DNA of 64,000 nt, taken from NCBI GenBank assembly GCA_000002445.1, contig CM000208.1, positions 2,656,001 through 2,720,000 of the forward strand, in the 5' to 3' direction. Both the position numbers and the translations under genes were made by a program. The DNA comes from Trypanosoma brucei. Lineage: Eukaryota. The notes beneath the pieces are model-generated. The model did no database searches, was not told the DNA's origin, and was given only the letters and a program-made list of their open reading frames with translations. This document shows positions 11,481 to 31,000 of the stretch, in pieces; position 1 is the stretch's first letter, and each line of letters begins with the position of its first letter.

Positions 11481-13745
11481 CTACTGATTGTCCACATCAT
11501 CATCCCAGCCGTCGCAACTATCAAGAGCACAACTTTCTTTAAATGCTTTCACCCCACTTACTTCTTCAATGTACATAGGGTCGTTGATACATCGTAGCAC
11601 AAAAGCTGACCCCTCGTCCTTGTATGAGCGTACGATAGGATCGGAGCATGCGGTGCACTGCTCGTAACGGCAACCATGGAGTGTGTAAACGTTGTGGTGG
11701 GCGACGCTACCACGTATTTGCTGTGGGATCGTGCCCAAAGGGCAAACAGCGCCACCTGCAACGGAATCGGAGACCCCCGGTGTCGCGTCCCTCTCACTCT
11801 GGACGTAAGGAGGACAGGCAAATCCCAGAGGGTGGTTGTAAAGTTGGGCAAGCAACTCCACTGCAATAGCAGATGCAATCGCTGAGAGACCAGGCCGAGT
11901 GACAGTGCACTGCTGGTCAAGCGTGCGAGCGGTAATACTGTCCCGAGGGGCGACGGAATCACTGCAGAAGTAGCAACCCAGACGAACGTACTTCGCCCCT
12001 TTGTCACTGCCTTCCGGTGGGTCCAATCCATGGCGCATAACAACATATGTGTCAAATGCAAGTGCAACATTAACGGTTGGTTTACAGTGTGCAGTGGCCA
12101 TTAGTGTAGGTAACCAGCGCGCTTCTCGGCTGTCAGTCAACAAGAACACCACATCGTGTGAGCGTATGAGTTCATCCAGAGCCTCTATTTCTGCCTTTAC
12201 TTCTTCCTCACGGGCCTTGTCCACGCGGTGACCGGGCATGTGTATTGTCAATGGCACACCACGTGCGTTTACACCAGGAAGGATACGTTTCAGTGCCTTA
12301 GCTGCGGCAATGGCTTTATTTCGTTCTTCTTCCCGTGGGTTGTTGACGTCAGACAACTCAAAGAGTGTTTGTCGAACCGGGTTTGAAAATGACACTTTAC
12401 CGCGATCCACAAGTGTGATATGCCTCACACCCCACATGAGCAACTGCCGTGCCACGTTGCAACCGAGCGTTCCTGTCCCTAACAGTAGAGCTTTGCACTG
12501 CGCCAACCTATCGAGGTTAAGTTCAGGCAGCGCGCGCCACTTCATCAAAGTTAAGTTAAGCCCAGCGCTCGCGTCGGCCAGTTTATCCGGAGACATCAGG
12601 GGGCCCAGATCAATAGTGTGAACACTCGAGGCTCCACCGTCGCTTTCCGGATCCACCCAGCCAACTACTTTGGCTGGACTAACACCTTCTACAACCTCCT
12701 CTAAGGTATAGGAAAGCGGCTCGCACATACAGTGAAAGAGGACGCTCTCTGACACATCGTTGTTCCGCACGCAGTATAAAGCAAACGAAGTAATGAGTGG
12801 CTGCGCCAATCGAAGAGCACTAACAATGTTGCGCACAGCCCATCCGGGCGAGCCTTCAGAAGAATAGTCCAGGAAAGCAATCAACGGCATTGAATGATTC
12901 GACGCTGCTTCCATAGACTTGGGCGAGAATGGTAGAAATATAACACACCCATCATCATTGTTTCCTTTACCCTTCACATCAGCAGCGGAAGATCGCACGA
13001 CAATAAAGGGATTGGGTCCATTCTCGGGTCTCTTCTGCAGTTTCTCCAACAAATGCGCATGAACGCGGTCAACAGCAAATTGGTTCGGAAAGTAAACACC
13101 TTTAAATTCAGACCCAGCAGCAGTATAACCACCTTTTACGCGCCGTTGAACAAAGACAGGAGAGCCAAGATCAAAAACAGGAAAGGCAACCGAATAAAGG
13201 AAACGGTGGCTTTTAAGGTCCGCGTACGTGTAAAGCGCCATAATTGAGAAGTTTACGTCCTCCCACGCTAGTTCCTCCGCAGAAGAGTATTCAGTTACGT
13301 TTTCCTCGCGCTTATTTTTGCAACAAGTATACAGAGGAAGAAGAAGTGACTTTTTCAAAATATCCCACAATGCGCTACGACGAGGAAGTTGGTAAAGTTG
13401 CTTAGCCGTATTAAAGTTTTGAATAAAGCCATCGTGTAGTGTGTGCACACACCGCAAACTCGTGCCGGTACCACCAGAATGGTCGTCGATTGGGTCTCCT
13501 TCACTCACCGATGTTTCGTCCCTAAGACGCCTCGTGACATTCACACGGCTCGCGGACAAGCTTTCCGCCCTCAGCGATACTAATGACCGATAGATACCTG
13601 AAGATGAGGAACTCGTAACACCAAATACTGGCGAGCGAATGATGGGCTCGGACAGCCTCCATTCATGTAGTTTCCTCTTTTCCAGTTCATACCAAAAACT
13701 GATCTCAATGCGAAAATCATGCATCAAATACTTCAAGCGCTCCAT
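11481..13745 (-). CDS. ATG7: Ubiquitin-like modifier-activating enzyme ATG7 (autophagy E1)
   Basis: ThiF/MoeB nucleotide-binding motif GTGTLGCNVARQLLMWGVRHITLVDRG and catalytic-Cys motif LDQQCTVTRPG (matches ATG7 LDQQCTVSRPG). N-terminal ISFWYELEKRKLHEWRLSE matches ATG7 N-terminal FWHELTQKKLNEYRLDE. The ORF track extends to 13811 through a poly-T tract; Met at 13745 (MERLKYL...) is the more plausible start. Confidence 0.85.
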   Translation of the reverse strand: MERLKYLMHDFRIEISFWYELEKRKLHEWRLSEPIIRSPVFGVTSSSSSGIYRSLVSLRAESLSASRVNVTRRLRDETSVSEGDPIDDHSGGTGTSLRCVHTLHDGFIQNFNTAKQLYQLPRRSALWDILKKSLLLPLYTCCKNKREENVTEYSSAEELAWEDVNFSIMALYTYADLKSHRFLYSVAFPVFDLGSPVFVQRRVKGGYTAAGSEFKGVYFPNQFAVDRVHAHLLEKLQKRPENGPNPFIVVRSSAADVKGKGNNDDGCVIFLPFSPKSMEAASNHSMPLIAFLDYSSEGSPGWAVRNIVSALRLAQPLITSFALYCVRNNDVSESVLFHCMCEPLSYTLEEVVEGVSPAKVVGWVDPESDGGASSVHTIDLGPLMSPDKLADASAGLNLTLMKWRALPELNLDRLAQCKALLLGTGTLGCNVARQLLMWGVRHITLVDRGKVSFSNPVRQTLFELSDVNNPREEERNKAIAAAKALKRILPGVNARGVPLTIHMPGHRVDKAREEEVKAEIEALDELIRSHDVVFLLTDSREARWLPTLMATAHCKPTVNVALAFDTYVVMRHGLDPPEGSDKGAKYVRLGCYFCSDSVAPRDSITARTLDQQCTVTRPGLSAIASAIAVELLAQLYNHPLGFACPPYVQSERDATPGVSDSVAGGAVCPLGTIPQQIRGSVAHHNVYTLHGCRYEQCTACSDPIVRSYKDEGSAFVLRCINDPMYIEEVSGVKAFKESCALDSCDGWDDDVDNQ

Positions 13746-13773
13746 GGCTACCTTTTCAAACACAGCCGAAGGC

Positions 13774-13803
13774 AAAAATAAAAAAAAAGAAAAAAAGCAA
13801 ATA
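13774..13803 (-). promoter_or_regulatory. Polypyrimidine tract (on minus strand) immediately upstream of the ATG7 start; candidate trans-splicing signal
   Basis: The plus strand reads ggcaaaaataaaaaaaaagaaaaaaagcaa, which gives a T/C-rich tract on the coding (minus) strand ~30 nt upstream of Met 13745. Confidence 0.45.
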
Positions 13804-14096
13804 ACACACAACGCTAACTGAAGGGGGAACCCCCACGGTCCCTACAAGAAGCCACTGCAGTACTCCCCACGCATGCTGTGACCTCACAGCCATCGGTAAA
13901 CACTGTGCCTGGTGGAAAGCAGGCGACAACTAGCAAAAAAAAAAGAGGTTCCTCAAGAAAACACCGTGCAACTGGCTCACCACCGAAAGTAGTGACTGTC
14001 AAATAACAACAGATATTAAGCACGAAGACCGCAAACCACCCCACATATTTAAATTCAACCGCAAAGTGCAATGCCCCAGCTACAGTGCCCCTCGCC

Positions 14097-15557
14097 TTAC
14101 CCCTTAACGCACAACAACTGTCTGAGCACACATACAACCTCCACAAGATCATCCTGAGCACGCATAACGTCGTCAATGTCCTTGTACGCCATGGGTGTCT
14201 CGTCTAGAACGTCAGCGTCTTTTCGGCACTCTATGCCCTTTGTTGCCGTCTTATGCTGCTCCAAGGTGAAACGTCGTTTCGCCTCACCACGGCTGTAACG
14301 CCTGCCAGCTCCGTGGGAGCAGGATGAGTAACTTTTTGGATTACCTTTCCCACGTACAATGTAGCTTCTCGTTCCCATGCTTCCAGGAATGACCGCAAGC
14401 TCGCCTGCACGTGCGGATGTAGCCCCCTTCCTTGTTAACCACACGTGCACTCCAGCACTCAACTCCATACGCTGAACGTAATTGTGATGGCAATTTATCG
14501 CAAGTGCATCAACGGAAAACCCCCTACCTATTGTTTTGCGCACCGCGCGAAGCACGTTGTCCAGCATAATCTCACGGTTCAGCTTTGCGTAGAGTTGCGC
14601 CCAATAAACAGCTTCCACATACTGTTCGAAGTGCTCAGAACCCTCACGCAGATAGGCCAGGTCGGCACTCGGAAGATTTGCTAGGTGGGCCCCCATATCC
14701 TTCTTGGCGAGCTCGAAAAATATTGTTCCGATGCGGTTTCCAACTCCCCGCGAACCGCTGTGCAACATCACCCAGATGTTAGGTTGCCGGGAAACGCCTT
14801 TGGACGTTTCAGATGTGGCACCGCTGCTCCCTGAATTCCCAATTTCAACGTAACTTTCACCCACGTCCACCTTCCTTCCATCATCAACACATAGTTCAAT
14901 GAAGTGATTTCCACCGCCCAGAGTGCCCAAGTGTTCAATGTGGTTGCTAGTTTCAATGTGTTTTTGCATGCAACAGATCTCCTCAAAGCCTTTCTGCAAC
15001 TGCGTCCGCCACACAGCAGCGACGCTCTCTGGGATATTGTTTCGCCAGCTTCCCGCATCTAACCCACTTCTACCATTGTGCGTTCGCCCGTGTGGGACGG
15101 CAACTTCGATAGCCAGTCGGAGGGCAGCCAGTGACGACGGTAAATCTTCTTGTGTCAGGCTCGTACGCACCGCGATCATCCCGCAACCGATATCCACCCC
15201 AACACTCGCTGGTATGATTGCCCGTGTTGTTGGGATGACCGTCCCTACAGTGGCACCGTTGCTAGTATGTACATCTGGCATGGCCACAACGGGGTGCTGA
15301 ATAATATCACCCAACCGTGACAACTGCAGGAGCTGTTCAACTGCAGAGCGCTCCACCTCAACGCCACTCACCCAAGCATGGACATCCACACTACTTCCTT
15401 CCTCCCGAATTACGGTATACGGTTCTACGTCCGACCCATGATCAGTCTCACCTACGGCGCAACACTTCCGTCCCGGAAACACAGCACTGTCGGTGCGTCC
15501 ACCTCCACCTGCACCAGCGGTAGCGCGAATGCATAATTTTGTGACAGCGTGACGCAT
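14097..15557 (-). CDS. rtcB: RNA-splicing ligase RtcB homolog (tRNA ligase, HSPC117 family)
   Basis: RtcB signature motifs MLHSGSRGVGN and SCSHGAGR, the C-terminal His-containing active-site region, and a size (486 aa) typical of the family. Confidence 0.9.
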   Translation of the reverse strand: MRHAVTKLCIRATAGAGGGGRTDSAVFPGRKCCAVGETDHGSDVEPYTVIREEGSSVDVHAWVSGVEVERSAVEQLLQLSRLGDIIQHPVVAMPDVHTSNGATVGTVIPTTRAIIPASVGVDIGCGMIAVRTSLTQEDLPSSLAALRLAIEVAVPHGRTHNGRSGLDAGSWRNNIPESVAAVWRTQLQKGFEEICCMQKHIETSNHIEHLGTLGGGNHFIELCVDDGRKVDVGESYVEIGNSGSSGATSETSKGVSRQPNIWVMLHSGSRGVGNRIGTIFFELAKKDMGAHLANLPSADLAYLREGSEHFEQYVEAVYWAQLYAKLNREIMLDNVLRAVRKTIGRGFSVDALAINCHHNYVQRMELSAGVHVWLTRKGATSARAGELAVIPGSMGTRSYIVRGKGNPKSYSSCSHGAGRRYSRGEAKRRFTLEQHKTATKGIECRKDADVLDETPMAYKDIDDVMRAQDDLVEVVCVLRQLLCVKG

Positions 15558-17513: not shown

Positions 17514-19010
17514 TCAAGTGCGTGTTTTTTTCATGGCATCGACGGGGCAATCCACCGCGTCACCATCCTCCGTATCCACGTCACCGCCTTCGGAAAAATC
17601 ACTTCTCCCCCGCCTGCGCGTCCGCGGGTCAACAGTGTCATAGTTCCACTGAGAGAAGGGATCGGTGGAACCCAACAGAGCCCCTAACTGGCGCTGGGTA
17701 AGGTTGGACAACCCCCGCAACCACGACTCCTCGCATACACGAGCCGAGACACAAGACTCCGCATACGCCAACCTCACCACCTGCACCCGGCCGCTCCGCT
17801 GGAGCACCATTGCTCTGTCGCCACCGAGGCCCACCATCGCAAGGGGAGGAGACTCTAAGCCTACACGTAAGGCACAGCAACCGGACAGTGACAGTTTGCC
17901 ACCAGTACCATCTTCCTCAAGAAGAACAAACAGCACGTCGCGTGCCCCTTCGTAGGCAACAAGGATGCCCTGGGATAGTGCGACTTCTCCGCGACCGTGC
18001 ACCTCCCCGGCATGTACCGACGCATGCACAACGGATAGCACAGCACCTGCACCGCTGGTTCGTGCATCTTCTTCGATGAAGGAACCGGAAGGGACGAAGG
18101 GTGTCGTACTGGCGTCCCCCACCGCCCCGGTAGCGTTGTCTGCAGTCCACAGGTGCACCCACCCATTCCGGTTACCCACGGCGAAGTGCGAGTACCTTCT
18201 TTCTTCCACCTGGCATTGGATCTCCGCTATGGCGGTTACCACTGATTGTGGTGCTCCAGTCCACAAATACTGTTCGATTCGAAATGTTTCAGGATAGAGA
18301 CTGACTCGTGCGTGACAATCCCTGTCACAAGTAAACAGGCGACGCCTCGGGAACGGATCGGGTGTTGGCCCCTTATTCCCACAACCAATCCACGGAATGG
18401 CCGACGATACAAAGAAGGTAGTCAGCACACTGAAATGTTGAAGTAGGAAGACATGAACCACTTCATCGGATGCCAACGCCAGCCCAGTACCTGTTTTCCA
18501 TACAAGCTGCAGTCGGAACACTTCACCAAACTTGTCTGCAAACAACACAGTTGCACCATCGCAAACGGCTACGTGTGTTATGCGCTTTGTGTGAGGCCGC
18601 GAGCGGAACAGTAGCGTAGCATTGTCAACGGTAGCATTCCCCAGTTGCAAGGAATGAGCATTTGCCCGCCTTGCGGACGATACGTCCTGCACCGCTATAA
18701 ACTTACCGTCGCCACCGGAAACAAGGCACAGACGCTCGTCAGGGGCACGAAGGAACGACATACCACGAACTATCTGGCCACCGCAGAGGACAACTACTGC
18801 TTCCTCTTCAGCACCGTCGCGGATGGCGACGAGAATTTCCGTCTCGACGCAGAGGGCAACAGCGGAACCATCACACAGAGAACAGACTGAAAGTGACCCT
18901 GCCCCACGACCAGCAACACACGAGATCATGTCCTTTACCTTGTCAACAGCAGAAAAGAGCCAACCACAACGAAAGGGGACCAAAAGCAGTGAAACACGGT
19001 GGGCAGACAA
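17514..19010 (-). CDS. WD-repeat protein, WDR4/Trm82-like (non-catalytic subunit of tRNA m7G46 methyltransferase)
   Basis: FADKFGEVFRL matches the WDR4/Trm82 ADKFGDVYSF motif. Downstream LFTCDRDCHARVSLY corresponds to ILTADRDEKIRVSW of WDR4. Repeated WD-like Gly/His-Trp/Asp blocks are present. Confidence 0.6.
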   Translation of the reverse strand: MSAHRVSLLLVPFRCGWLFSAVDKVKDMISCVAGRGAGSLSVCSLCDGSAVALCVETEILVAIRDGAEEEAVVVLCGGQIVRGMSFLRAPDERLCLVSGGDGKFIAVQDVSSARRANAHSLQLGNATVDNATLLFRSRPHTKRITHVAVCDGATVLFADKFGEVFRLQLVWKTGTGLALASDEVVHVFLLQHFSVLTTFFVSSAIPWIGCGNKGPTPDPFPRRRLFTCDRDCHARVSLYPETFRIEQYLWTGAPQSVVTAIAEIQCQVEERRYSHFAVGNRNGWVHLWTADNATGAVGDASTTPFVPSGSFIEEDARTSGAGAVLSVVHASVHAGEVHGRGEVALSQGILVAYEGARDVLFVLLEEDGTGGKLSLSGCCALRVGLESPPLAMVGLGGDRAMVLQRSGRVQVVRLAYAESCVSARVCEESWLRGLSNLTQRQLGALLGSTDPFSQWNYDTVDPRTRRRGRSDFSEGGDVDTEDGDAVDCPVDAMKKTRT

Positions 19011-19377
19011 AAGTAATGGAAAACCCTCCCAAATCCGATGTAGATGGCATGATACTGGTAGGGCTTTAGTTCACAATCTGTAGTGGTAGAGCTGTGCGTG
19101 AGTCGCGAAATATTTACCTTCTTGCCATCAACGTGACGAAATTCATCCACCACGGATACCAACACACATTCGCTAAACAAAAAAAAAAAACTATGACCGC
19201 GTACACCATCCACTACAATCGACTCAACTAAATAGAGTCATACAATACCCGAAAGTTAAACAACAAAGAGTAAAATAAAAAAAAATATCGCTCATCTAAA
19301 AAAAAGAAAACACATTGTCACGCATGGTTCTTGACCACGCTTTGACAATGACAAAAGAACTGTCCTAACCGCGTTAA

Positions 19378-20811
19378 CTACACTGTAGGATTTGGTTGGG
19401 GGCAGGGCGCTTGCCCATAAGAGTGACCCTGTTGTTGCGGTGGTGGCGGTTGGCCGTAAGTATAGCCTCCTTGTGGTGGTGGCGGTTGGCCATACGTGTA
19501 CCCTTGTTGCGGTGGTGGCTTCCCATAAGTATACCCTCCTTGTTGCGGCGGTGGTGGTTGGCCATACGTGTGCCCTTGTTGCGGTGGTGGTGGTTGCCCA
19601 TAGGGATAACCTTGTTGTTGCGGCGGTGGTGGTTGCCCATAAAGGTAGCCCTGCTGCGGCAGTGGTTGGCCGTAGGCATAACCTGGTGGTGGTGGTGGTT
19701 GTGATTGTCCGTATGTATAAGGAGAGCCATCCCCCTGAGGTGTATCAGGATCACTCGTATCATTGGATGAAGAGCCCTTACGCTTCAGACAGAAGCAAAC
19801 TACACACACACACACGGCAATTTCCAGAAGAAGGAGCAGCGATCCGGCCACGATACAAGCGATTCCCATTGTCCGATTCGGAACGCCGAATTCACCCTCG
19901 CCCATCGTTTCACGCTCGAGTGCGATGAAAGGATCTCCCTCACTGTATAACTGCACCTGAACCTTATCCTGGGGTACCGCCTCGTATCCCTGGGACAGAT
20001 GTCCAAAACTGTACAACGCGCTCTGATATTGGGTACTTTCCCTGTACCCCCCTTTTCCATCGCTTGCAGCGACAAGATAGAGCTTGGACAAATACACTTC
20101 CTGCTTGCAGTAGCCGCACTTTTCACCCAACCGACATTTCGAGCTTTGAGTAGTGTATTGGCCACCTTGTGAATAGCACTTGTTCCTAAATTGCTCGTGC
20201 TTCTCTTGACAGTCACATTTTCTGGAATATCCAGAACATTGAGAAGAACTGCAGGAGAACCATCTCTCCCTTGTTGCATGAAGAGGTGACCTCCGCGTGA
20301 ACGGTGCGACGGTGTTAATGTTCACCTTCACTACCAGTTGGCTGCCATCGGTGTTACCGCTAACCGGGACGGTGGCTTCAGTGTAAACGGACGGTATCGG
20401 ACCAAAACCCGCGACGGACAGTGACTGCCGTCTGACGGTGGCCTTCACATCACTGAATGTTCCAGTCCAACTCTCCAGGGGCTTTGGGTCGAATGCACTC
20501 ACCGCCTTCTTGAAATTGTCACGAGGGTCGTCGCTGGAGAGGAAAAGTACGCCAACACCGATGAGGACAGGGCCTCCAATGAGGAGACAACATAGGCACG
20601 CAACCGCGGTCTTGAAGAATTCACCGACAGAGTGCACGAGCTGTTCGATGCACATGAAGCTTTTCCTTGCGACGGCGTTAGCTCTGCACAACGAGTAGGG
20701 AAGAAAGGTGAGAGTAGGGTTTGGCGGTGGAAGCACGCGCGCACACGCATAATCGAAACTTACAACTGAGCACACGAAAAAGCGAGTTACAAGCACAAAT
20801 TTGTCAACCAA
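19378..20811 (-). CDS. Membrane protein: N-terminal hydrophobic segment, Cys-rich lumenal/extracellular domain, a TM helix (GIACIVAGSLLLLLEIAVCVCVVCFCL), then a cytoplasmic tail of ≥8 tandem YGQPPPPQQG(Y/H)T repeats containing PPxY-like motifs
   Basis: Direct reading of the translation. Repeats are encoded at about 19396–19700. An alternative start Met lies at 20655 (MCIEQL...). Confidence 0.6.
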   Translation of the reverse strand: MVDKFVLVTRFFVCSVVSFDYACARVLPPPNPTLTFLPYSLCRANAVARKSFMCIEQLVHSVGEFFKTAVACLCCLLIGGPVLIGVGVLFLSSDDPRDNFKKAVSAFDPKPLESWTGTFSDVKATVRRQSLSVAGFGPIPSVYTEATVPVSGNTDGSQLVVKVNINTVAPFTRRSPLHATRERWFSCSSSQCSGYSRKCDCQEKHEQFRNKCYSQGGQYTTQSSKCRLGEKCGYCKQEVYLSKLYLVAASDGKGGYRESTQYQSALYSFGHLSQGYEAVPQDKVQVQLYSEGDPFIALERETMGEGEFGVPNRTMGIACIVAGSLLLLLEIAVCVCVVCFCLKRKGSSSNDTSDPDTPQGDGSPYTYGQSQPPPPPGYAYGQPLPQQGYLYGQPPPPQQQGYPYGQPPPPQQGHTYGQPPPPQQGGYTYGKPPPQQGYTYGQPPPPQGGYTYGQPPPPQQQGHSYGQAPCPQPNPTV

Positions 20812-20856: not shown

Positions 20857-21861
20857 TCACAACTTCTTTACTTCACCCACAGTCCTCTGCCGCATCAGCG
20901 TTAGGAGTGTCTCGACAGTGGCGCTGTCATTTCGCTCGTCCTCCACCTTTCGGAACTGTAAGCGAAGCTTCCGCGCCTCTTTTTCGTGTAGTTTTTGTTG
21001 GATGCTGTCAACATAATGCTGTTTCTCCCGGTTGCGAGAGCCGCTCATAACGTAGCCGAGGGACTCCGCAGCAGCAACGCTCTCCGCATCGTATCCAATC
21101 TCCCCACGACGCGGTGCTCGCTTATACTGTGCAAGGAACTCCTCGCGGGTCATTTGCAGTGGATGCTTTGAAGCAGCGACGCACCCTCGTGGCTCCTCGG
21201 TTTTGCTGTAGTCCGGTTCGTTGCCTTGTTGCAACGACACACCAAACTCGTCACCCCCATCATCCCCCGTCTGTGCACCTACCCGTAGCCCACGGCACTC
21301 ACCGTCGGCGGTGGCGCCGCCGCTACGTGGTGGCGCCGGGCACATTACATGACAGACGCCACTGTCGGTCTTGATAGGCCCTACACCTTCTACAGTTTCC
21401 CTCGCACGCGCTGCCTCGATGAGGGCTGCGAGCGCGCTGGGGGTTGGGGACACCCCTGCCGCGTCAACACGCCTAACCTCATGCGCGGTGCTGGTCGCCA
21501 CCTCTGGTTCGTGGTGGTCATCACATGGTGACGGAGACGCTGCCGACACTTCCCCTGCGCTAGGACTCTCTCCCTCTGCGTCGTAGCCTACACCTGAGGA
21601 GCGCACGAGGAACGCAACAGTTTCGCTCAACGGGCTCTCCCCCGTCCTCGTTCCGTCACCCCGTCCGTTCACCGTACAAGTTCGCTGGGGACGCGACTGT
21701 CCCGGTAGACTCCCTCTCTTTCCAAGCGCGGATAGTTCGTGCACAGCCAACGTGTGATGCGTGCAAAATATGTTTTGCGCAATAACGGAATGCACAACTT
21801 TCTCTAGCTCCCTACCGCGAGGTTCCATTGCAGGGCACCAAAAGGCACCAGTCCCTGCCAT
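20857..21861 (-). CDS. NKAP-family protein (NF-kappa-B-activating-protein C-terminal domain, DUF926)
   Basis: C-terminal GYVMSGSRNREKQHYVDSIQQKLHEKEARKLRLQFRKVEDER matches the conserved NKAP C-terminal block (…YVMSGSRHRRM…IRKENQ…). The N-terminus is low-complexity R/S/E-rich. Confidence 0.7.
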   Translation of the reverse strand: MAGTGAFWCPAMEPRGRELEKVVHSVIAQNIFCTHHTLAVHELSALGKRGSLPGQSRPQRTCTVNGRGDGTRTGESPLSETVAFLVRSSGVGYDAEGESPSAGEVSAASPSPCDDHHEPEVATSTAHEVRRVDAAGVSPTPSALAALIEAARARETVEGVGPIKTDSGVCHVMCPAPPRSGGATADGECRGLRVGAQTGDDGGDEFGVSLQQGNEPDYSKTEEPRGCVAASKHPLQMTREEFLAQYKRAPRRGEIGYDAESVAAAESLGYVMSGSRNREKQHYVDSIQQKLHEKEARKLRLQFRKVEDERNDSATVETLLTLMRQRTVGEVKKL

Positions 21862-23710: not shown

Positions 23711-26329
23711 TCAGTGCAGAGATGATGCTATATCAGAAAGATCATCCGCAAGTTCAGGGTATTTGTCGGTTAGCTCTCCTAGTATTTCGGCGAATGCCCT
23801 CCGTTTTTCGTTCAGTCTCGATGCCTCAGCTGCCGTATGCTTTAACTCTAGAGCGGACTTGTACGTTCCCTTCTCTGCGTCACGAATGCGCTGGAGACTC
23901 GAGTTCTTCGCGCGTCGCTCGTCCTCTAAACGGTCGTGTTCCTTTTGAGCGACAACAAGTTGTGAGCGAAGCTCGGAAATCTGTTCGTCAAGAGTGTCTA
24001 TTTCCCGCTGAACAGATTCTGCCTCGGCCGTTGTCTTCTCAATGGAAGCAAGACGTTCCTTGATCTGACGCTCTTTTAGCTGCGCCTCTTGTCTTTTTTC
24101 ATTTAACTCCTTAAACATCCTGGAACTTTCTTTTTCAATATCCATTCTCGTCACTCCCCGCTTGTTCACTTTGGCAGCCTCTTGGATCGCCTGGCCTTTT
24201 GCCCTGATGATCTCCCGATGATCAATTGACTTCTGCATTTCTTCAATTAAAAACCGCTGTTCACGCTGCAGGTGACTGACTCGCTGTTCCATGATCCCAA
24301 TCTCTTTTCTCATTTTCTCTACTTCTGCTTTACCAACCGAAGGATCTAACGCCATCTCAGTTTCTTTAGCAACTTGCATTTTCCTCTCCCAAAACAATAT
24401 ATCACTTTCATGATTCATAATTTGTTCAAGGAGTTCGGTTTTCGCCTGTCTAGCTTCCTCCACCTTTTGCTCAAGCACGATCGCCTCACGCTTTTTTTCC
24501 TGGAGTCTACGAATGAGATCATTCTCGAGAAGAAACGCTTCGTTGGCAACGTTCTTCTGATCATCGGAATTTTTGCAAAGTTGAGTGTTTACCCGTTTCA
24601 TCTCTAGGTGCATGGCATTCGCCTTGTTTTCGAGGTTTGCAATGTCCTTTTTCTCGTTTGATATATTTACTAGAAGTCGATCCCTTTTTTGTGTTAGTAC
24701 AGTGCTCTGGGCCTGGAGCTCAAGAATCGCTTCGTTCACTTCATTTGAATTGTTTTTACAGTTAACCAACTCTGTTTGCAGTTTTATCCATTCCTGTTGG
24801 AGAGCCTCATTTTCATTGACTTTTTCCGCAATTGCTTTTGAAAGACTGTTAATGGTGGCCTCCAGGGGCCCTACGTGTTCCCCCTTGTCGGCGCCATAAG
24901 CAGCGACAAGTTGTTCATACTGGTGGTTGAGTTGGTCTAGTTGTTTTTGCTTCCTGTCGATCTCGTCGTGTCGACGGTGAATGTCCATTTGCATGCGTTC
25001 GACCATCAGGCCACGAGCTTGTAGCTCCTTTTCGAGATCGCCCAATGTGGTTTTCAGGGTCTCATTATGTGACTGAGCCTGCAGTGTGTCCACACGAATG
25101 CGAGCAAGTTCGTTCTCCATTTGTGCCACTTGAAGCTCCTTGGATCTAATGGAGCCTTTCATTTTTTCGATATCACTCAACGTACCGTGGCACTCTTGTT
25201 TCAGTGAGGACTGCTTACCAAGTGACTCGAGTATGTCATTTTCCATCAGGACCACCTCCTTAGAAACCTTCAACATCTTCTTCTCGATATCGGCAGCTTC
25301 GGTAGAGTATGTTCTTGCCTCGTATTCCAGCTTTTTGGCTTCTGCATCTGTTTGTTCAATATTATCCTTCAGCATCACGTATTCACGTGCGCCTTTCTCC
25401 TTTCTTTCCACAAGGACATCGATCTGCTTCCCTAGAACGGTAACTTCGTTGTCAACTCGAGACATGAATTCAGCCAATTTGGCAGTCTCTGCTTGAACGC
25501 CTTTAATGTCTTTCCTTGTCCCAATTATCTCGTTCTCGAGCACTTGTAGCTCATCTTTCTGCTGTTGCAGTGCCTCTTCTGTCTTTTTCATGGCTTCGTG
25601 ACGCCGTTGCATCCCAATGAGCGTACCCTTCCACTGTTGAACTAATTGTTTTTTTTCAAAATTAATTGCCTCCATTTCTGCCAAAGCTTCAGCTAATATT
25701 TCCCGAGCCTTCTGGGTTTCCCTTTGCTGGTTCTCGACCTGGGAGTTAACCGTGGATATTTCTTCTTCTAGCAGAACAACACGTTTCTCCAAAGAATCTA
25801 TAAGGTTGTCTTGCTTCAACTTTTCCTTCTCCAAGTTGGTTATATCTTCCTCTGTTTTGAAAGCAGCACGGCGCTCCACTTGAACTTCGTTTTTGAGTTG
25901 TTCATTAAACTGTTGGACTTTCACTAATGTTTCAGTAAGCTTTAAAAGATCCGCCTGCTGACGTTCGTATTGTCGTTGCTGGTCCTCAATGTTTTTCCGA
26001 AGTGTGTCTGCCTGCGCAGCAAGTTCCTCTCGTTCTTGAAGCTTTTCCTCGTGTTTTTGCTTTGTTGCGAGGTGCTTTTCATGGCATTTCTCAAGAGTTT
26101 CCTGCAACTTGGCAAGGTGTTGCTGGGAATTGTAAAGCTCAACACCGCATTGCTCCCTTTCTTTCTGAGCCTTAGATAATTCATTCTTTACTTCATAGAT
26201 CTGCTGCATGACCTCTTCCAGATGCTGTCGAAGTTGCGCTTCAATGCGCTTCTGGACCGGTGCGAGCACCGCAGATTCCGGGTCCAGGTCGGAAACATCG
26301 CTTGCAACATCGTATGGTACGTCGGACAT
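23711..26329 (-). CDS. Long coiled-coil protein (~870 aa), possibly cytoskeletal or flagellar
   Basis: Heptad-rich E/K/Q/L composition almost throughout. The ORF track's first 40 codons (to 26449) are read through an upstream poly-T tract; Met at 26329 (MSDVPYDV) is the plausible start. Confidence 0.65.
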   Translation of the reverse strand: MSDVPYDVASDVSDLDPESAVLAPVQKRIEAQLRQHLEEVMQQIYEVKNELSKAQKEREQCGVELYNSQQHLAKLQETLEKCHEKHLATKQKHEEKLQEREELAAQADTLRKNIEDQQRQYERQQADLLKLTETLVKVQQFNEQLKNEVQVERRAAFKTEEDITNLEKEKLKQDNLIDSLEKRVVLLEEEISTVNSQVENQQRETQKAREILAEALAEMEAINFEKKQLVQQWKGTLIGMQRRHEAMKKTEEALQQQKDELQVLENEIIGTRKDIKGVQAETAKLAEFMSRVDNEVTVLGKQIDVLVERKEKGAREYVMLKDNIEQTDAEAKKLEYEARTYSTEAADIEKKMLKVSKEVVLMENDILESLGKQSSLKQECHGTLSDIEKMKGSIRSKELQVAQMENELARIRVDTLQAQSHNETLKTTLGDLEKELQARGLMVERMQMDIHRRHDEIDRKQKQLDQLNHQYEQLVAAYGADKGEHVGPLEATINSLSKAIAEKVNENEALQQEWIKLQTELVNCKNNSNEVNEAILELQAQSTVLTQKRDRLLVNISNEKKDIANLENKANAMHLEMKRVNTQLCKNSDDQKNVANEAFLLENDLIRRLQEKKREAIVLEQKVEEARQAKTELLEQIMNHESDILFWERKMQVAKETEMALDPSVGKAEVEKMRKEIGIMEQRVSHLQREQRFLIEEMQKSIDHREIIRAKGQAIQEAAKVNKRGVTRMDIEKESSRMFKELNEKRQEAQLKERQIKERLASIEKTTAEAESVQREIDTLDEQISELRSQLVVAQKEHDRLEDERRAKNSSLQRIRDAEKGTYKSALELKHTAAEASRLNEKRRAFAEILGELTDKYPELADDLSDIASSLH

Positions 26330-26394
26330 AGATTCTCCTGCGGAATAACTGTAGTGAGCAAGATCAGTTGTGAAAAAAGCACAAATAAAGGTAC

Positions 26395-26436
26395 ACGCAC
26401 AAAAAAAAAGGAAAGCAAAAAAAAAAAAAAAAGAGC
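26395..26436 (-). promoter_or_regulatory. Polypyrimidine tract (minus strand) upstream of the coiled-coil gene start at 26329
   Basis: Plus-strand purine run aaaaaaaaaggaaagcaaaaaaaaaaaaaaaagagc. It explains the ORF over-extension to 26449. Confidence 0.45.
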
Positions 26437-26526
26437 ATAGTCGATACATAAAGCACCAGCTCGGACACCGTTTGCACGACCTAGCGAAGGAAAGTGGTCA
26501 GAGGGGAACCCCAAAGCCCATATTGC

Positions 26527-27162
26527 TCACACTGTCTTTTTACTCTGTCGTCGCTCTTCGCACTCTGCCCACTGAGGCATCTTGTTAATTTCCCGATAAT
26601 CGGGCAACGGTGCCTGGTCAATACCACTCTGATGTGGTCGATACTTCTCAGGAAGCTCCGGTATAACGCGATAACTGTAATCAACTGTTTTGAATTGCTT
26701 ATAGTATAACCACTCTTCTTTCGTATCAAATCTCTCAGGTGGATTTCCATTCTGAAACGCCTGAACAGCCGTTCGAATAGCGTCTCGAGTCATCCGTGGG
26801 ATTCCCCTTACACGTAGTTGTCGTTTGTCGCAAGTAAATAAATCATTCCAGTCCTTAAACGATGCCTTGAAGTCACTCGTGGGCCTCAAACGGTGTATAT
26901 CAGCTCTTTCTAGAAATGTCTCGTGGTTTGGTACATAAGATGTAGGAGGACGTATGGACTGTGGAACAATTTCCGATCGCTGTGTGGTTTCTATTGGTGC
27001 CAACTTGCGTGGATCCGGCATGTACGTATACTTGTACGACTTGTGTGGCCCATATGTTTGATCTAAAACAGTTAACGTTCTTTTCAGCATCCTTAGACCA
27101 CCCTTTCTCAACAGGCTCAAAAAAAGTGAGAGTTTTGAGGGGGCATGCGTAGCTTCTGACAA
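26527..27162 (-). CDS. Hypothetical protein, possible mitochondrial (alternative start MLKRTLTV at 27090)
   Basis: ORF in polycistron orientation. Internal Met followed by a basic/hydroxylated segment typical of kinetoplastid mitochondrial presequences. Confidence 0.45.
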   Translation of the reverse strand: MSEATHAPSKLSLFLSLLRKGGLRMLKRTLTVLDQTYGPHKSYKYTYMPDPRKLAPIETTQRSEIVPQSIRPPTSYVPNHETFLERADIHRLRPTSDFKASFKDWNDLFTCDKRQLRVRGIPRMTRDAIRTAVQAFQNGNPPERFDTKEEWLYYKQFKTVDYSYRVIPELPEKYRPHQSGIDQAPLPDYREINKMPQWAECEERRQSKKTV

Positions 27163-27344
27163 CTTATCTGCTTAAAGCGAGATCTAGGGAAACTTACCAT
27201 AACACACAACACATTACCCGCTCCCCTTACCCGACGTTTCACAAGTTCATATTAGAGAGTTGGAAGCAAACAGGTCAAAGGATCATGACGACTTCTCTGG
27301 TACCGTGCTTCGCTTTTTATTCGACTACTTAATTTATCTAGCTT

Positions 27345-28073
27345 TCAGTTGTGGACTTGCACCCCCACCACTGCTGCTAATAGTCCCGGGATTGTTATTG
27401 CTCCACTGCTAACGGTGATAATTTTCCCCTTCACAGTCTTTCCGTTTAGTTGTTGAATACACTTTAGAACAGAATCAGGCGACCTGTAGAACACCATTGC
27501 CATGGTCTCATAACGGCTCAGATCGATTAACTCTCCAAACGGCGAAAATAATCGGGCTACCTGATCGTTAGTCATGTTAAAAGGAACGTTGTCTACCAAT
27601 GCTACGCTGGCCCGCGCGGGTGGCGTAAATGGATGGTGTCGAATTGCATTATTCCCTTTGTTACTTGTTCGCTCGCTGCCGCTACCTGGGCCTATCACGC
27701 TTGGGTGGCGTCGCCGGTTCCCTTCGCGTTTTCTTTCATTGAATGTGACGTCCCCTTTATCAGTCGCCCCGAAGGAAAAAATTTCCATTGCAGGATCAAT
27801 TAACATATTCTTTCCCATTTTGCGCATCCTTTGCTTAGCCTTTGGTTCTTCAATCTTTCGTACTAGCCCCGGAACGGCATCTATCCGCGAAGTGGCATCC
27901 CTAGCAGCCTCCTTGTCGCTAAACTTAATGAAAACGCTCGTCGTATTTTCTTTACCTTCTTTGGTTCGTAGAGAACCCACCGCCTCCACGCCAGGCCACT
28001 CGCGGACAACGGCTTCAATACGTTGAAAATCGTGCGTGGGGCAATATGCCAGCAGCACAGAAGGATCCACCAT
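27345..28073 (-). CDS. RNA-binding protein with RRM-like domain(s)
   Basis: RRM-like segments (SVFIKFSDKEAARDA; ALVDNVPFNMTNDQVARLFSPFGELIDLSRYETMAMVFY). The ORF-track start at 28094 reads through a (TA)8 microsatellite (HIYIY), so Met at 28073 is preferred. Confidence 0.55.
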   Translation of the reverse strand: MVDPSVLLAYCPTHDFQRIEAVVREWPGVEAVGSLRTKEGKENTTSVFIKFSDKEAARDATSRIDAVPGLVRKIEEPKAKQRMRKMGKNMLIDPAMEIFSFGATDKGDVTFNERKREGNRRRHPSVIGPGSGSERTSNKGNNAIRHHPFTPPARASVALVDNVPFNMTNDQVARLFSPFGELIDLSRYETMAMVFYRSPDSVLKCIQQLNGKTVKGKIITVSSGAITIPGLLAAVVGVQVHN

Positions 28074-28086
28074 ATATATATATATA
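28071..28086. repeat. (TA)8 microsatellite overlapping the annotated start region of the RRM gene
   Basis: atatatatatatatat is seen directly. It causes the ORF to extend to an upstream ATG (MPHIYIYM). Confidence 0.9.
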
Positions 28087-28094
28087 TGCGGCAC

Positions 28095-31000
28095 TCCCTT
28101 AAGATGCGCAGTACGTGCGTTCGCGGGAAATAATAGGCTAGAATGCTGGTGGATTGTGTGTGCTACTGTCGTGTGTAATTTAAAAAAAAAGTATTAGTTA
28201 TATTACAAGGGGCATAATAACTTTAAAAGTACCAGCGAGGACCTGCTGCGGCTCTAAAAGGGGCAAATACAGACGCAGCACGAAATCAACGGGGCCTCAA
28301 AACCGAACATGGTCGTGCCAAGACACACTCATTCAACTGTATATCGCGGTTTGCGGCATCCATAGTGATGCGGCAAGAGCCCCCGCGCATATGAGAAATG
28401 TCAACTGGACAGAGCTCCGTCCACATAAAAGTTGGAGGGGATCACTGAGAAGCAAAATTGGAAGACAATCAAAAACATACTTAGCAATGGCAAGGACTTT
28501 CAACCGAGTCAGCATCAGTGCATATGCCACAAATGACGTTACGGTGTAAAAATCGATACGCTACACCCATTTTTTTTTTGAGCACGAAACAACGATGCGG
28601 CAGTAGACGTGTCGACAGCCCCCTCAGCGCAGACGCATCGGCTTTACCACGGCCCTCCGCCGTCACGAGTCGCCGGCAACAACACCAGTGGAAACCGCAT
28701 TAACAACACGAATTGGATAAGGAAGACAAAAAGATCGGGGTCTGAGGAGGCAGCAGGAAGCATTTGATGTCCTCCAGCGACCCTGAGAAGCTCCCGACGC
28801 TACAGGGAAAGGAGAATCGCAGTGGCCAGCCACACCGTTTACCAAACGTGAAAGCAGATGCCGGGGCTTTCAGCGCCGAGTTGCGTCAACGCCATCCACA
28901 AGCACCAATCCACTAGGCCTTGAAAGAAGTTTCCACACATGTCGGGGTCACAGTACCCGAAGCACACCAAGAATAAAGCACCAAAGCGGGAGGCGAACGT
29001 AGGAAGTGATAGACTAGGTGAAGTAAACGATCGAAGGCATGTAACGCAAACGCCCACAAAAGCAAACTGCCGGCCTGCGAGGGGATCTGCGCCACACACG
29101 TGCCTACAGACCAGCGCAGTGTCAGATCAGAGACCGGCTTAGGGGCAGTAGAACCCGACCCCTCCACAAGGAAGGAGCTACCGCACATCCGCCGCCACGT
29201 CTTCGGCAACGAGAGGGCTTCGTCCAGGAACTATGGGACGGGTTGCTGTGGCAGAAACGCTAAGGCGGAACAGACGGCTTCTATTGGATGTGAGTGAAAA
29301 CGAAGGGTCCTCATTTGTCTGCTCCACAACCCCTCAGCTGTATGTTATGCTTCGGTCGATGAGAAAGAGACGGGGTGGGCGCGATCCTACTTCAGAGCCA
29401 CCCGCTTCTCAAGGGCAACTGCAGCCCTTTAGGGGGGGGGGCCCAACACTCTACGCCACAGTTCCGACCCATTTTTCTGGTAACAAAGTAAGAGCACTAG
29501 GATCATTGATGTCGAAGGTCAGTATCAGGTTTCGTTCCCGAACAGCCCAATCGCCAGTGCAGGGGCTGACTTACCTTCAAAGATACGACCGTAGGAGAGA
29601 TGCAGTCTGACGCTGCGTTCCAAATCATTCTCCATCAATGACCTAACGGCCGATATATGTCGAAGGCACGGGGTGTCCCCACTTTTAATTCTATCACAAG
29701 ACGATGTGCCGTCAATAGAAAAGGGCCATGTGTTCCGCGTTTAGGTCAACCAAGCGTTGGGGAGGGCTGACCGAGCCGGCGAAGCCCCAGTTTCCATGAG
29801 TAGGTGAAGGATTTTCTCTTATCACCTACACTGACTCCTCAGACACACTGCACTAGCCACCAGACGACCGGAAAAGACACATTCCGCTAAGCTGGTAACC
29901 AAAACTTCCTGATTTAGGCTTTTTCGGACTAGCGCGACCATTTTTTTTTTTTCTAAAGGTGCTTCCTGTGAGCCTTTTAGATTTTCCAACTCTCGAAATC
30001 GACTAATACCAGCCAGTAAACAAGTCCAGAACAAACCTAGATTTGCTGAAGCTCTGCGCGGCACTGTTGTAAGTAAAAAAATGCAGGGGGGGACGCACAC
30101 CCACAACTAAGGGAACGCGGTATATTCGGTGTCTTGGTAGTCTCACATTATGCACTATCCAACTTCCTGGCAGCGCCACGTCGCGAGGACGCCACAGCCA
30201 TCTCTCAGCAAGTTGTCAGGGTTGGCCGTTGGAGTTCAAACCCAGGCACATAGGCGGCTCCTCCCGTAAGGGACCGGTTGACAATCCCCACTTTTCGTAA
30301 TGAAGTTAGAGGTGCTTCGGGTTCTAGTAGATTTATATAAGAAAATTCTTTGTTTTCATTGAGCTCCACAATTCTAAAGTAAAAACTACATCTGAGAAGA
30401 AAAGGTTTATCCTAAAAGTTTTTAGAAGAATATTTTCCCTTCATACCCATGAAAACCTCCTGCCACACGGGAAGGCATCAGTAAATGCATAAAACTTTTG
30501 CCATAGTTGTACGACATTCGGTGCTACCGGTAACTTGGTCGCATATTCCCAGAAACTTCAGCGGAATTAGCATACCACAGCACTGCAACAAGGTACTGCT
30601 CACGTTTGCCTAATGCAGTTGAATTTCCACACCAGAAACCATAGAAGAGAGGGAACAGTAATTGCTTTCGTCCATCACCCGGAGCTGATACTGAACCTGC
30701 GTTGCTCCTCATAAGGAGCCAGAACGAACCGCGTGGGAAACCTTCGAATTCTCACAGGAGACGAACCCAACAAACCGAAGCCACAAACCTATAGTGTGGG
30801 ACGTGCCGTGACGCCACAAGACAGACCATTCTAGGGATTATTTGTGTTGTCCACGTGAACTCAGGAGGGGTCTCGGATTCCAGCCATTTCAGGAGAGTTG
30901 CAGGTACAGGCTTCGCCGTTATCCGCGCCACCCGTGAAATTTCAGTTCATCAACGTGTGTCCGAACACTATGGAAGTCCCCATCCAGCACGACTTAGTTT

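What the first reader, a model, noticed from the sequence alone, without database searches (positions are those of the whole stretch)
19378..19760. Membrane protein with a cytoplasmic tail of ≥8 tandem YGQPPPPQQG(Y/H)T repeats
Downstream of the TM helix, the C-terminal ~110 aa are almost entirely tandem repeats of about 12 residues (PPPPPGYAYGQ, PLPQQGYLYGQ, PPPPQQQGYPYGQ, PPPPQQGHTYGQ, …). They are encoded by a near-perfect DNA repeat at 19396–19700, which also generates spurious overlapping ORFs in other frames. The P/G/Y/Q-rich units contain PPxY-like motifs (WW-domain/NEDD4-type ligase ligands) and resemble the N-terminal low-complexity regions of penta-EF-hand proteins and annexin A7/A11 (ALG-2-binding PxYPxnYP type). 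This suggests a cargo-sorting or ubiquitin-dependent endocytic signal array, or a phase-separating tail on a surface or endosomal membrane protein.
Basis: seen in the sequence. Interest (0 to 1): 0.6.

Follow-up and report, generated by a model that had tools for sequence, protein, structure and literature searches.

The report
PSSA-2 surface protein's repeat tail
This is the already published Trypanosoma brucei insect-stage surface protein PSSA-2, whose proline/tyrosine-rich "YGQP" repeat tail was described in 1993 and shown in 2009 to be cytoplasmic and to lie in the domain needed for the protein to reach the cell surface, so the finding is real but not new.

Summary
A minus-strand gene (ATG 20655, stop 19378-19380, 425 aa) ends in nine YG[Q/K]-initiated units of 11-13 residues (residues 315-425, window 19381-19713), far beyond chance. 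The DNA repeat is degenerate (about 72% between units), not near-perfect.

The protein is 100% identical to T. brucei TREU927 "procyclic form surface glycoprotein", that is PSSA-2 (Tb927.10.11220). Already in the literature:
- the cytoplasmic location of the tail;
- ER retention when the cytoplasmic domain is deleted;
- phosphorylation of T305;
- repeat-number differences between strains;
- crystal structures of the ectodomain (5KLH, 5KMX, 6Y0D).

The specific mechanisms are not supported. There is one strict PPxY motif, and it is absent from T. rangeli, T. vivax, T. theileri and T. melophagium. No ALG-2-binding motif occurs in any homologue. What is conserved is an aromatic-x-Tyr-Gly-Gln-Pro core in a tail predicted to be disordered.

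My best reading is a multivalent disordered docking or self-association tail that supports forward trafficking. The role of the repeats themselves has never been isolated. Novelty: already known. Interest is low.

The parts
19378..20655 (-). PSSA-2 coding sequence (425 aa plus stop codon at 19378-19380). The ATG at 20653-20655 is the likely start. The mechanical ORF extends to a TTG at 20811.
   Evidence: 100% identical to XP_823331.1 / EAN78503.1, 'procyclic form surface glycoprotein [T. brucei brucei TREU927]', 425 aa.
20542..20607 (-). N-terminal hydrophobic segment (residues about 17-38). It is either a signal peptide or an uncleaved signal anchor.
   Evidence: Hydropathy peak of 2.58. 69% mean identity among Trypanosoma orthologues, equal to the C-terminal transmembrane helix and above the ectodomain's 50%. 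Predicted to be a signal anchor in PMC4643927. Drawn as a signal peptide in PMC2739429.
19867..20541 (-). Extracellular domain (residues about 39-263), Cys-rich, with a bilobed fold.
   Evidence: phmmer against PDB: 5KLH E=1.2e-148 (T. brucei ectodomain), 5KMX 2.5e-98 (T. congolense), 6Y0D 5.7e-95 (T. cruzi TcSMP). AF2 pLDDT is mostly above 90.
19786..19866 (-). Transmembrane helix (residues about 264-290). Its cytosolic end is Cys-rich (CVCVCVVCFC) and is partly encoded by an (AC)7 run at 19802-19815.
   Evidence: Hydropathy peak of 2.86. AF2 helix 260-294. AC run.
19714..19785 (-). Non-repetitive juxtamembrane cytoplasmic segment (residues 291-314, KRKGSSSNDTSDPDTPQGDGSPYT). It holds T305 (19741-19743), the only Thr-Pro in the tail.
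   Evidence: T305 phosphorylation and its dependence on MAPK4 are published (PMC2739429).
19381..19713 (-). Repeat array (residues 315-425): eight full units of 11-13 aa with consensus YGQPPPPQQG(G)Y(T), plus a degenerate terminal unit ending -NPTV.
   Evidence: AF2 pLDDT is below 50 with no secondary structure over 298-425. The [YF]xYGQ core is conserved in all Trypanosoma orthologues.

Best explanation
The region encodes the C-terminal cytoplasmic domain of PSSA-2 (procyclic-specific surface antigen 2, Tb927.10.11220), a minor surface protein of tsetse-stage T. brucei.

Architecture: an N-terminal hydrophobic signal or anchor, a bilobed Cys-rich ectodomain, one transmembrane helix, a short juxtamembrane segment carrying phospho-T305, then about nine degenerate Pro/Gln/Gly/Tyr units.

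Shown by others:
- the tail faces the cytoplasm;
- removing the whole cytoplasmic domain traps the protein in the ER;
- T305 phosphorylation (MAPK4-dependent) is needed for surface delivery when no wild-type copy is present;
- the null mutant colonises tsetse salivary glands poorly.

Inferred here: the repeat array is an intrinsically disordered, polyproline-II-prone, multivalent module. Its selected feature is a regularly spaced aromatic-x-Tyr-Gly-Gln-Pro core (nine Y/H-x-Y pairs, 11-13 residues apart). It most likely offers many weak, equivalent contact sites. These would serve a cytoplasmic partner (ER-export or surface-retention machinery, or a signalling adaptor) and/or self-association of PSSA-2 molecules. 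Copy number can drift by a unit without loss of function. No experiment has yet separated the repeats from the T305 segment.
For: Identity:
- 100% identity over 425 aa to the TREU927 protein.
- PDB ectodomain 5KLH, E=1e-148.
- Gene ID and name from PMC2739429 and PMC4643927.

Topology, ER retention, T305, inferred multimerisation and the fly phenotype: PMC2739429.

Disorder: AF2 pLDDT is 35-43 over residues 301-425, with no secondary structure.

Selection acts on the peptide rather than on the DNA:
- Between units there are 113 synonymous against 64 non-synonymous codon differences. Amino-acid identity is 80% against 75% nucleotide identity.
- [YF]xYGQ occurs 4-8 times in every named Trypanosoma tail. 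P/Q/G/Y composition is kept even in homologues of 24-31% identity.

Tolerance of copy number: alleles of 412, 424, 425 and 436 aa.
Against: - The published deletion (292-436) removed T305, the juxtamembrane segment, the repeats and the C-terminal residues together. The ER-exit requirement therefore cannot be assigned to the repeats.
- No binding partner is known.
- No phosphotyrosine was detected despite 16 tyrosines in the tail.
- Candidate linear motifs are not conserved across orthologues: PPP runs number 7-9 in T. brucei, T. rangeli and T. vivax, 0-1 in T. theileri and 2 in T. cruzi. YxxPhi motifs are absent.
- The distant homologues lose the strict period. Composition alone might therefore suffice.
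Confidence: 0.6

Rival explanations
1. One reading: the units are PPxY-type ligands for WW-domain (NEDD4-type) ubiquitin ligases and form a ubiquitin-dependent endocytic sorting array.
For: - One strict PPxY exists (PPGY, residues 323-326).
- T. cruzi-clade tails have 2-4 PPGY.
- Three lysines in the tail could accept ubiquitin (K291, K293, K379).
- WW-domain proteins exist in T. brucei: ZFP2 and ZFP3, with a Nedd4-like flanking motif (PMC2873481).
Against: - Eight of nine T. brucei units lack PPxY. They read PPPPQQGY, which has the wrong spacing.
- T. rangeli, T. vivax, T. theileri and T. melophagium have no PPxY, while keeping 6-8 YGQ units.
- The published phenotype of tail loss is ER retention, not surface accumulation.
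- The known trypanosome WW proteins cited are RNA-binding zinc-finger proteins, not ligases.
Confidence: 0.04
2. One reading: the tail is an ALG-2 / penta-EF-hand-binding region like the N-termini of annexin A7/A11 and penta-EF-hand proteins.
For: Only the overall Pro/Gly/Tyr/Gln composition.
Against: - There are no ABM-1-type (P.YP.{1,6}YP) matches in the 30 family sequences scanned, and no ABM-2-type (P.PGF) matches in the T. brucei tail.
- The tail alone matches only the T. cruzi orthologue among PDB chain sequences at E<=10.
- It matches nothing among 5.8 billion proteins at E<=1e-3. That search was also blind to true orthologue tails, so it is a weak negative.
Confidence: 0.02
3. The tail works mainly through homotypic, sticker-and-spacer self-association (clustering or condensation). 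Regularly spaced Tyr pairs act as stickers and P/Q/G as spacers. This would drive PSSA-2 oligomerisation at ER exit sites or on the surface.
For: - Nine aromatic pairs at 11-13-residue spacing, in a predicted disordered region with low net charge.
- Genetic evidence that mutant T305A is carried to the surface by wild-type PSSA-2, which the authors interpret as homodimers or multimers.
- An extra band of about 70 kDa for the T. cruzi orthologue.
- Tyr content is held at 9-15% in all homologues with a PSSA-2-type architecture (P0001-P0026), even where the repeat period is lost.
Against: - No direct test exists.
- Oligomerisation could equally come from the ectodomain or the transmembrane helices.
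- 29% proline disfavours many condensate-type contacts.
Confidence: 0.2
4. The repeats have no specific function. They are a slippage-prone low-complexity spacer, and the trafficking information lies in T305, the juxtamembrane segment and/or the C-terminal residue.
For: - Copy number varies between strains.
- Column identity in the repeat region (46%) is slightly below that of the ectodomain (50%).
- The only site demonstrated to be functional is T305, upstream of the repeats.
- Most family members end in a hydrophobic or aromatic residue. From memory, that is a known type of ER-export signal in other eukaryotes.
Against: - An array of 4-9 YGQ units is kept in every Trypanosoma species examined. 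A P/Q/G/Y tail of 90-160 aa is kept in the distant homologues.
- The excess of synonymous over non-synonymous differences between units argues for constraint on the peptide, not recent DNA homogenisation.
Confidence: 0.14

Closest known systems
PSSA-2 of Trypanosoma brucei (Tb927.10.11220 / Tb10.26.0790; Jackson et al. 1993 J Biol Chem 268:1894; Fragoso et al. 2009 PLoS One 4:e7074)
   Same: It is this gene. The 425-aa TREU927 protein is 100% identical. T305 is at the same position and the YGQP repeats are the same.
   Different: Nothing. Other strains differ by about one repeat unit: 412 aa for the 1993 clone, 424 aa for T. b. gambiense, 436 aa for AnTat 1.1.
TcSMP family of T. cruzi and T. 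congolense ISA (PMC4643927; PDB 6Y0D, 5KMX)
   Same: These are orthologues with 41-50% identity. They share the N-terminal hydrophobic segment, ectodomain fold, transmembrane helix and C-terminal YGQ-centred repeats.
   Different: T. cruzi has a tandem gene family, whereas T. brucei has a single copy. T. cruzi has fewer units (4-6), with PPGY rather than PPPPQQGY spacers. It is expressed in all T. cruzi stages and implicated in host-cell invasion.
ISG65 and CRAM of T. brucei (type I membrane proteins whose cytoplasmic domains are needed for ER exit)
   Same: The behaviour is the same: deleting the cytoplasmic domain gives ER retention. The PSSA-2 authors draw this comparison themselves.
   Different: There is no sequence relationship. 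From memory, those tails are short and not Pro/Tyr repeat arrays.
Synaptophysin C-terminal tail (YG[P/Q]QG pentapeptide repeats) and cephalopod rhodopsin C-terminal PPQGY repeats. Recalled from memory and not tested here.
   Same: Both are cytoplasmic C-terminal tails of membrane proteins built from short tandem Tyr-Gly-Pro-Gln units and presumed to be disordered.
   Different: The unit length differs (5 against 11-13 residues) and there are no polyproline runs. No homology was detectable: the tail matched no such PDB chain at E<=10. This is an analogy only.
Plant extensins (Pfam PF04554 Extensin_2)
   Same: Pfam scores the tail above the family cut-off: 26.9 bits against 20.8, E=5e-6. The precomputed annotation carries the same family.
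   Different: The match is compositional. There is no SPPPP motif in the T. brucei tail. The region is cytoplasmic rather than a secreted cell-wall protein. It is not an extensin.

Membership tests
PSSA-2 / TcSMP family (trypanosome surface membrane proteins) | Sequence identity to the reference PSSA-2 protein | tested here: met
   100% identity over all 425 residues to XP_823331.1 / EAN78503.1.
PSSA-2 / TcSMP family (trypanosome surface membrane proteins) | Bilobed Cys-rich ectodomain, as in PDB 5KLH / 5KMX / 6Y0D | tested here: met
   phmmer E=1.2e-148, 2.5e-98 and 5.7e-95. The AF2 ectodomain is mostly above pLDDT 90.
PSSA-2 / TcSMP family (trypanosome surface membrane proteins) | N-terminal signal or anchor, a single C-terminal transmembrane helix, and a cytoplasmic tail with YGQ(P)-centred Pro/Tyr repeats | tested here: met
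   Two hydrophobic segments and nine YG[QK] units. The same layout is seen in all 24 aligned sequences, PSSA-2 included. Cytoplasmic location is from experiment.
WW-domain class I ligand arrays (NEDD4-type targets or adaptors) | Multiple [LP]PxY motifs | tested here: not met
   One PPxY and no LPxY in the 135-aa tail.
WW-domain class I ligand arrays (NEDD4-type targets or adaptors) | Motif conserved in orthologues | tested here: not met
   No PPxY in T. rangeli, T. vivax, T. theileri (x2) or T. melophagium; 2-4 in the T. cruzi clade and T. conorhini.
WW-domain class I ligand arrays (NEDD4-type targets or adaptors) | A WW-HECT ligase in the organism that binds the tail | not testable with these tools
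   The literature seen mentions only WW domains in ZFP2 and ZFP3. No binding data exist.
ALG-2 (penta-EF-hand) binding regions of annexin A7/A11, Alix or PLSCR3 type | ABM-1 (PxYPxnYP) or ABM-2 (PxPGF) motif | tested here: not met
   No ABM-1 matches in the T. brucei tail or in any of the 30 family tails scanned. No ABM-2 match in the T. brucei tail.
Extensin (Pfam PF04554) | Ser-(Hyp)4 / SPPPP repeats in a secreted cell-wall protein | tested here: not met
   No SPPPP in the tail. The tail is cytoplasmic. The Pfam hit reflects composition.

The most novel reading that the evidence does not exclude
The repeats, rather than T305 or the C-terminus, may be the ER-exit or surface-retention determinant. 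They would act as a polyvalent ligand. One option is that the PPPP runs bind the COPII inner coat, as triple-proline motifs of TANGO1/Sec31 bind Sec23 in other eukaryotes (recalled from memory, not tested). The other is that the periodic Tyr pairs drive clustering. Copy-number variation between strains would then tune surface delivery and fly transmission. This would give a first mechanism for a conserved kinetoplastid tail type.
Probability: 0.12. Interest if true: 0.45.

Novelty: already known. Interest (0 to 1): 0.1.

Why it matters
PSSA-2 is one of the few membrane-spanning surface proteins of tsetse-stage T. brucei, and it is needed for efficient salivary-gland colonisation. Its gene, repeat tail, topology, phosphosite, strain polymorphism and ectodomain structure are all published, so the scan has rediscovered a known feature. 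The one open point is what the YxYGQP repeats do, as distinct from the rest of the cytoplasmic domain. That is a modest question for specialists. The analysis here narrows it: PPxY/WW and ALG-2 motifs can be set aside, and the conserved element is the periodic aromatic-x-Tyr-Gly-Gln-Pro core in a disordered tail.

Tried and rejected
- Searching 5.8 billion proteins with the tail alone returned nothing at E<=1e-3, not even orthologue tails. Composition-bias correction removes everything, so the test says nothing about the penta-EF-hand/annexin resemblance.
- The tail alone against PDB sequences returned only the T. cruzi orthologue (E=0.022) and one chance hit.
- The Pfam Extensin_2 hit was rejected as compositional.
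- I considered PPP runs as conserved Sec23, profilin or SH3-type ligands. I rejected them as the conserved feature: T. theileri has 0-1 and T. cruzi has 2.
- YxxPhi endocytic motifs are absent from the T. brucei tail.
- A broad literature search for PSSA-2 with ubiquitin, WW, endocytosis or palmitoylation was badly specified and gave irrelevant papers. Narrower searches found no work on the tail after 2015.
- The paper on the ectodomain structure (PMC5119560) is not held.
- I tried to trace the source organism of the distant homologues. This gave only short anonymous metagenome contigs.

Full report
**Observation**

The finding lies at the 3' end of a minus-strand ORF, 19378..20811. The first in-frame ATG is at 20655 and gives a 425-aa protein ending at the stop codon 19378-19380.

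Hydropathy shows two hydrophobic segments, at residues about 17-38 and about 264-290. KRK follows the second directly.

Residues 315-425 (window 19381-19713) split cleanly into nine units that each start with YG[Q/K]:
- YGQSQPPPPPGYA
- YGQPLPQQGYL
- YGQPPPPQQQGYP
- YGQPPPPQQGHT
- YGQPPPPQQGGYT
- YGKPPPQQGYT
- YGQPPPPQGGYT
- YGQPPPPQQQGHS
- YGQAPCPQPNPTV, a degenerate terminal unit

Aromatic/His-x-Tyr pairs recur every 11-13 residues with no exception. None of 100,000 shuffles of the tail reached nine YG[QK]; the maximum was five. Tandem Repeats Finder reports a 36-nt period array at 19411-19666 with 72-, 75- and 108-nt superperiods.

The overlapping ORFs in other frames are real. They also have a practical consequence. 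One database entry for T. b. equiperdum (P0030, 475 aa) is frameshifted inside the repeat and runs on in another frame past the true stop.

The claim of a "near-perfect DNA repeat" is overstated. Tandem Repeats Finder gives 72-84% matches, and pairwise unit identity averages 71.5%, range 58-86%.

**Identity**

The protein is 100% identical over 425 residues to [quoted passage not shown] (XP_823331.1), which lies on a 4.05-Mb contig. This is PSSA-2, gene Tb10.26.0790 = Tb927.10.11220.

The ectodomain has been crystallised:
- 5KLH, T. brucei, E=1.2e-148
- 5KMX, T. congolense, E=2.5e-98
- 6Y0D, T. cruzi TcSMP, E=5.7e-95 (PMC8781870)

**What is already published**

- Jackson et al. 1993 (cited) cloned PSSA-2. 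[quoted passage not shown]
- Fragoso et al. 2009 (PMC2739429) reported the following:
  - The C-terminus is cytoplasmic: the HA tag is seen only after permeabilisation.
  - Deleting residues 292-436 retains the protein in the ER with BiP.
  - T305, the only Thr-Pro, is phosphorylated in a MAPK4-dependent way.
  - T305A is mislocalised only when no wild-type copy is present, so the authors proposed multimers.
  - No phosphotyrosine, sulphotyrosine, O-GlcNAc or N-glycan was detected.
  - The null mutant colonises salivary glands poorly.
  - AnTat 1.1 carries an extra 30-bp repeat, giving 436 aa against 425.
- Martins et al. 2015 (PMC4643927) described the T. cruzi orthologues (TcSMP). [quoted passage not shown]

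T305 in the window protein sits exactly where the paper places it, at 19741-19743.

PPxY:
- There is one strict match in the T. brucei tail, PPGY at 323-326. The other units read PPPPQQGY.
- Across orthologues, PPxY occurs zero times in T. rangeli, T. vivax, both T. theileri paralogues and T. melophagium. It occurs 2-4 times in the T. cruzi clade and T. conorhini.
- All named Trypanosoma orthologues nonetheless keep 4-9 YG[QK] units.

ALG-2-binding motifs:
- The ABM-1 type (PxYPxnYP) has no match in any of the 30 family sequences scanned.
- The ABM-2 type (PxPGF) has no match in the T. brucei tail.

Other candidates:
- YxxPhi motifs are absent from the T. brucei tail.
- PPP runs are abundant in T. 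brucei, T. rangeli and T. vivax (7-9). They are nearly absent in T. theileri (0-1) and number two in T. cruzi.

The element that survives across the genus is the [Y/F]-x-Y-G-Q-P core. In the 24-sequence alignment, Y328, Q330, Y339 and Q402 are invariant and Y315 is nearly invariant.

Unannotated metagenomic and transcriptomic homologues at 24-31% identity keep the whole architecture and a P/Q/G/Y-rich tail of 90-143 aa, but they lose the strict period.

**Nature of the tail**

- Composition is P 28%, Q 19%, G 16% and Y 12%.
- An AlphaFold2 model built from the 24-sequence alignment gives the ectodomain mostly above pLDDT 90. It gives residues 298-425 a pLDDT below 50 with no secondary structure. 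That fits intrinsic disorder.
- Between units, synonymous codon differences outnumber non-synonymous ones, 113 to 64. Amino-acid identity (80%) exceeds nucleotide identity (75%). The peptide is under constraint; the array is not simply a young DNA repeat.
- T. brucei-group alleles of 412, 424, 425 and 436 aa differ by about one unit, so copy number is tolerated within limits.

**Mechanism**

Shown:
- The tail is cytoplasmic.
- The cytoplasmic domain as a whole is required for ER exit.
- Phospho-T305 gates delivery to the surface.

Inferred: the repeats form a disordered, multivalent array of equivalent YxYGQP(P)n sites. These would dock a cytoplasmic partner and/or mediate self-association.

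The published deletion removed T305, the repeats and the C-terminus together, so the contribution of the repeats alone is unknown. The rivals, in order, are:
- sticker-and-spacer self-association, which is plausible but untested;
- a functionless spacer, argued against by conservation;
- a WW/NEDD4 ligand array;
- an ALG-2 ligand region.

The last two were tested at motif level and the motifs are not there.

**Comparison with known systems**

Membership in the PSSA-2/TcSMP family is certain. The Pfam Extensin_2 hit is compositional: there is no SPPPP and the region is cytoplasmic. The functional parallel with ISG65 and CRAM (tail needed for ER exit) is the one the original authors draw. Synaptophysin YG[P/Q]QG tails and cephalopod rhodopsin PPQGY tails are analogies recalled from memory, not tested relationships. 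The tail alone matched no such chain in the PDB sequence set.

**Verdict**

The proposed WW and ALG-2 mechanisms are not supported. The feature is already known, and interest is low.

Noticed in passing
window 20542-20655 (-), residues 1-38 of PSSA-2: The N-terminal hydrophobic segment is about 22 residues long. It is as conserved among Trypanosoma orthologues as the C-terminal transmembrane helix (69% each, against 50% for the ectodomain). Cys2 is conserved in most homologues and G28, P29 and G35 are invariant or nearly so. That fits an uncleaved signal anchor, and hence a two-pass hairpin topology, better than a cleaved signal peptide. The literature is split: signal peptide in PMC2739429, predicted anchor in PMC4643927. 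Neither has been tested.
   Followed up: partly
window 19802-19815: An (AC)7 dinucleotide run lies inside the transmembrane-coding segment and encodes CVCVC. The cytosolic end of the helix carries five cysteines (CVCVCVVCFC), just before KRK. These are candidate palmitoylation sites. The C-x-C near the membrane edge is partly conserved in orthologues.
   Followed up: no
P0030 (T. b. equiperdum RHW69133.1), corresponding to window about 19378-19560: This database protein is frameshifted within the repeat array. It reads through in an alternative open frame to 475 aa. The frame-open repeats can therefore mislead gene models, or reflect an assembly error.
   Followed up: no
P0016-P0026; L001 1369-2733, L002 1293-2657: Unannotated homologues from metagenomes and transcriptomes (24-31% identity) share the full PSSA-2 architecture, including a P/Q/G/Y tail. 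The family therefore probably extends beyond the named Trypanosoma species. The source organisms could not be identified.
   Followed up: partly
window 19381-19383 (C-terminal Val) and the C-termini of homologues: Most family members end in a hydrophobic or aromatic residue: V, L, F or Y. From memory, a C-terminal hydrophobic residue is a known ER-export signal type in other eukaryotes. It could account for part of the ER retention seen in the tail-deletion mutant.
   Followed up: no
window 1-64000; switch at about 26450-33135: All large ORFs left of about 26.4 kb are on the minus strand, and all those right of about 33.1 kb are on the plus strand. GC skew changes sign at the same place. This is a divergent strand-switch region typical of trypanosome polycistronic units. 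Neighbours of PSSA-2 include RtcB (14097-15557), ATG7 (11481-13811), an Nkap_C-domain protein (20857-21861), a BRE1-like protein (23711-26449) and IFT57 (35647-36912).
   Followed up: partly
window 19170-19310: Several A-runs on the plus strand (T-runs on the coding minus strand) lie just downstream of the PSSA-2 stop codon. They look like the polypyrimidine tracts that direct polyadenylation of PSSA-2 and trans-splicing of the next gene (17514-19010).
   Followed up: no
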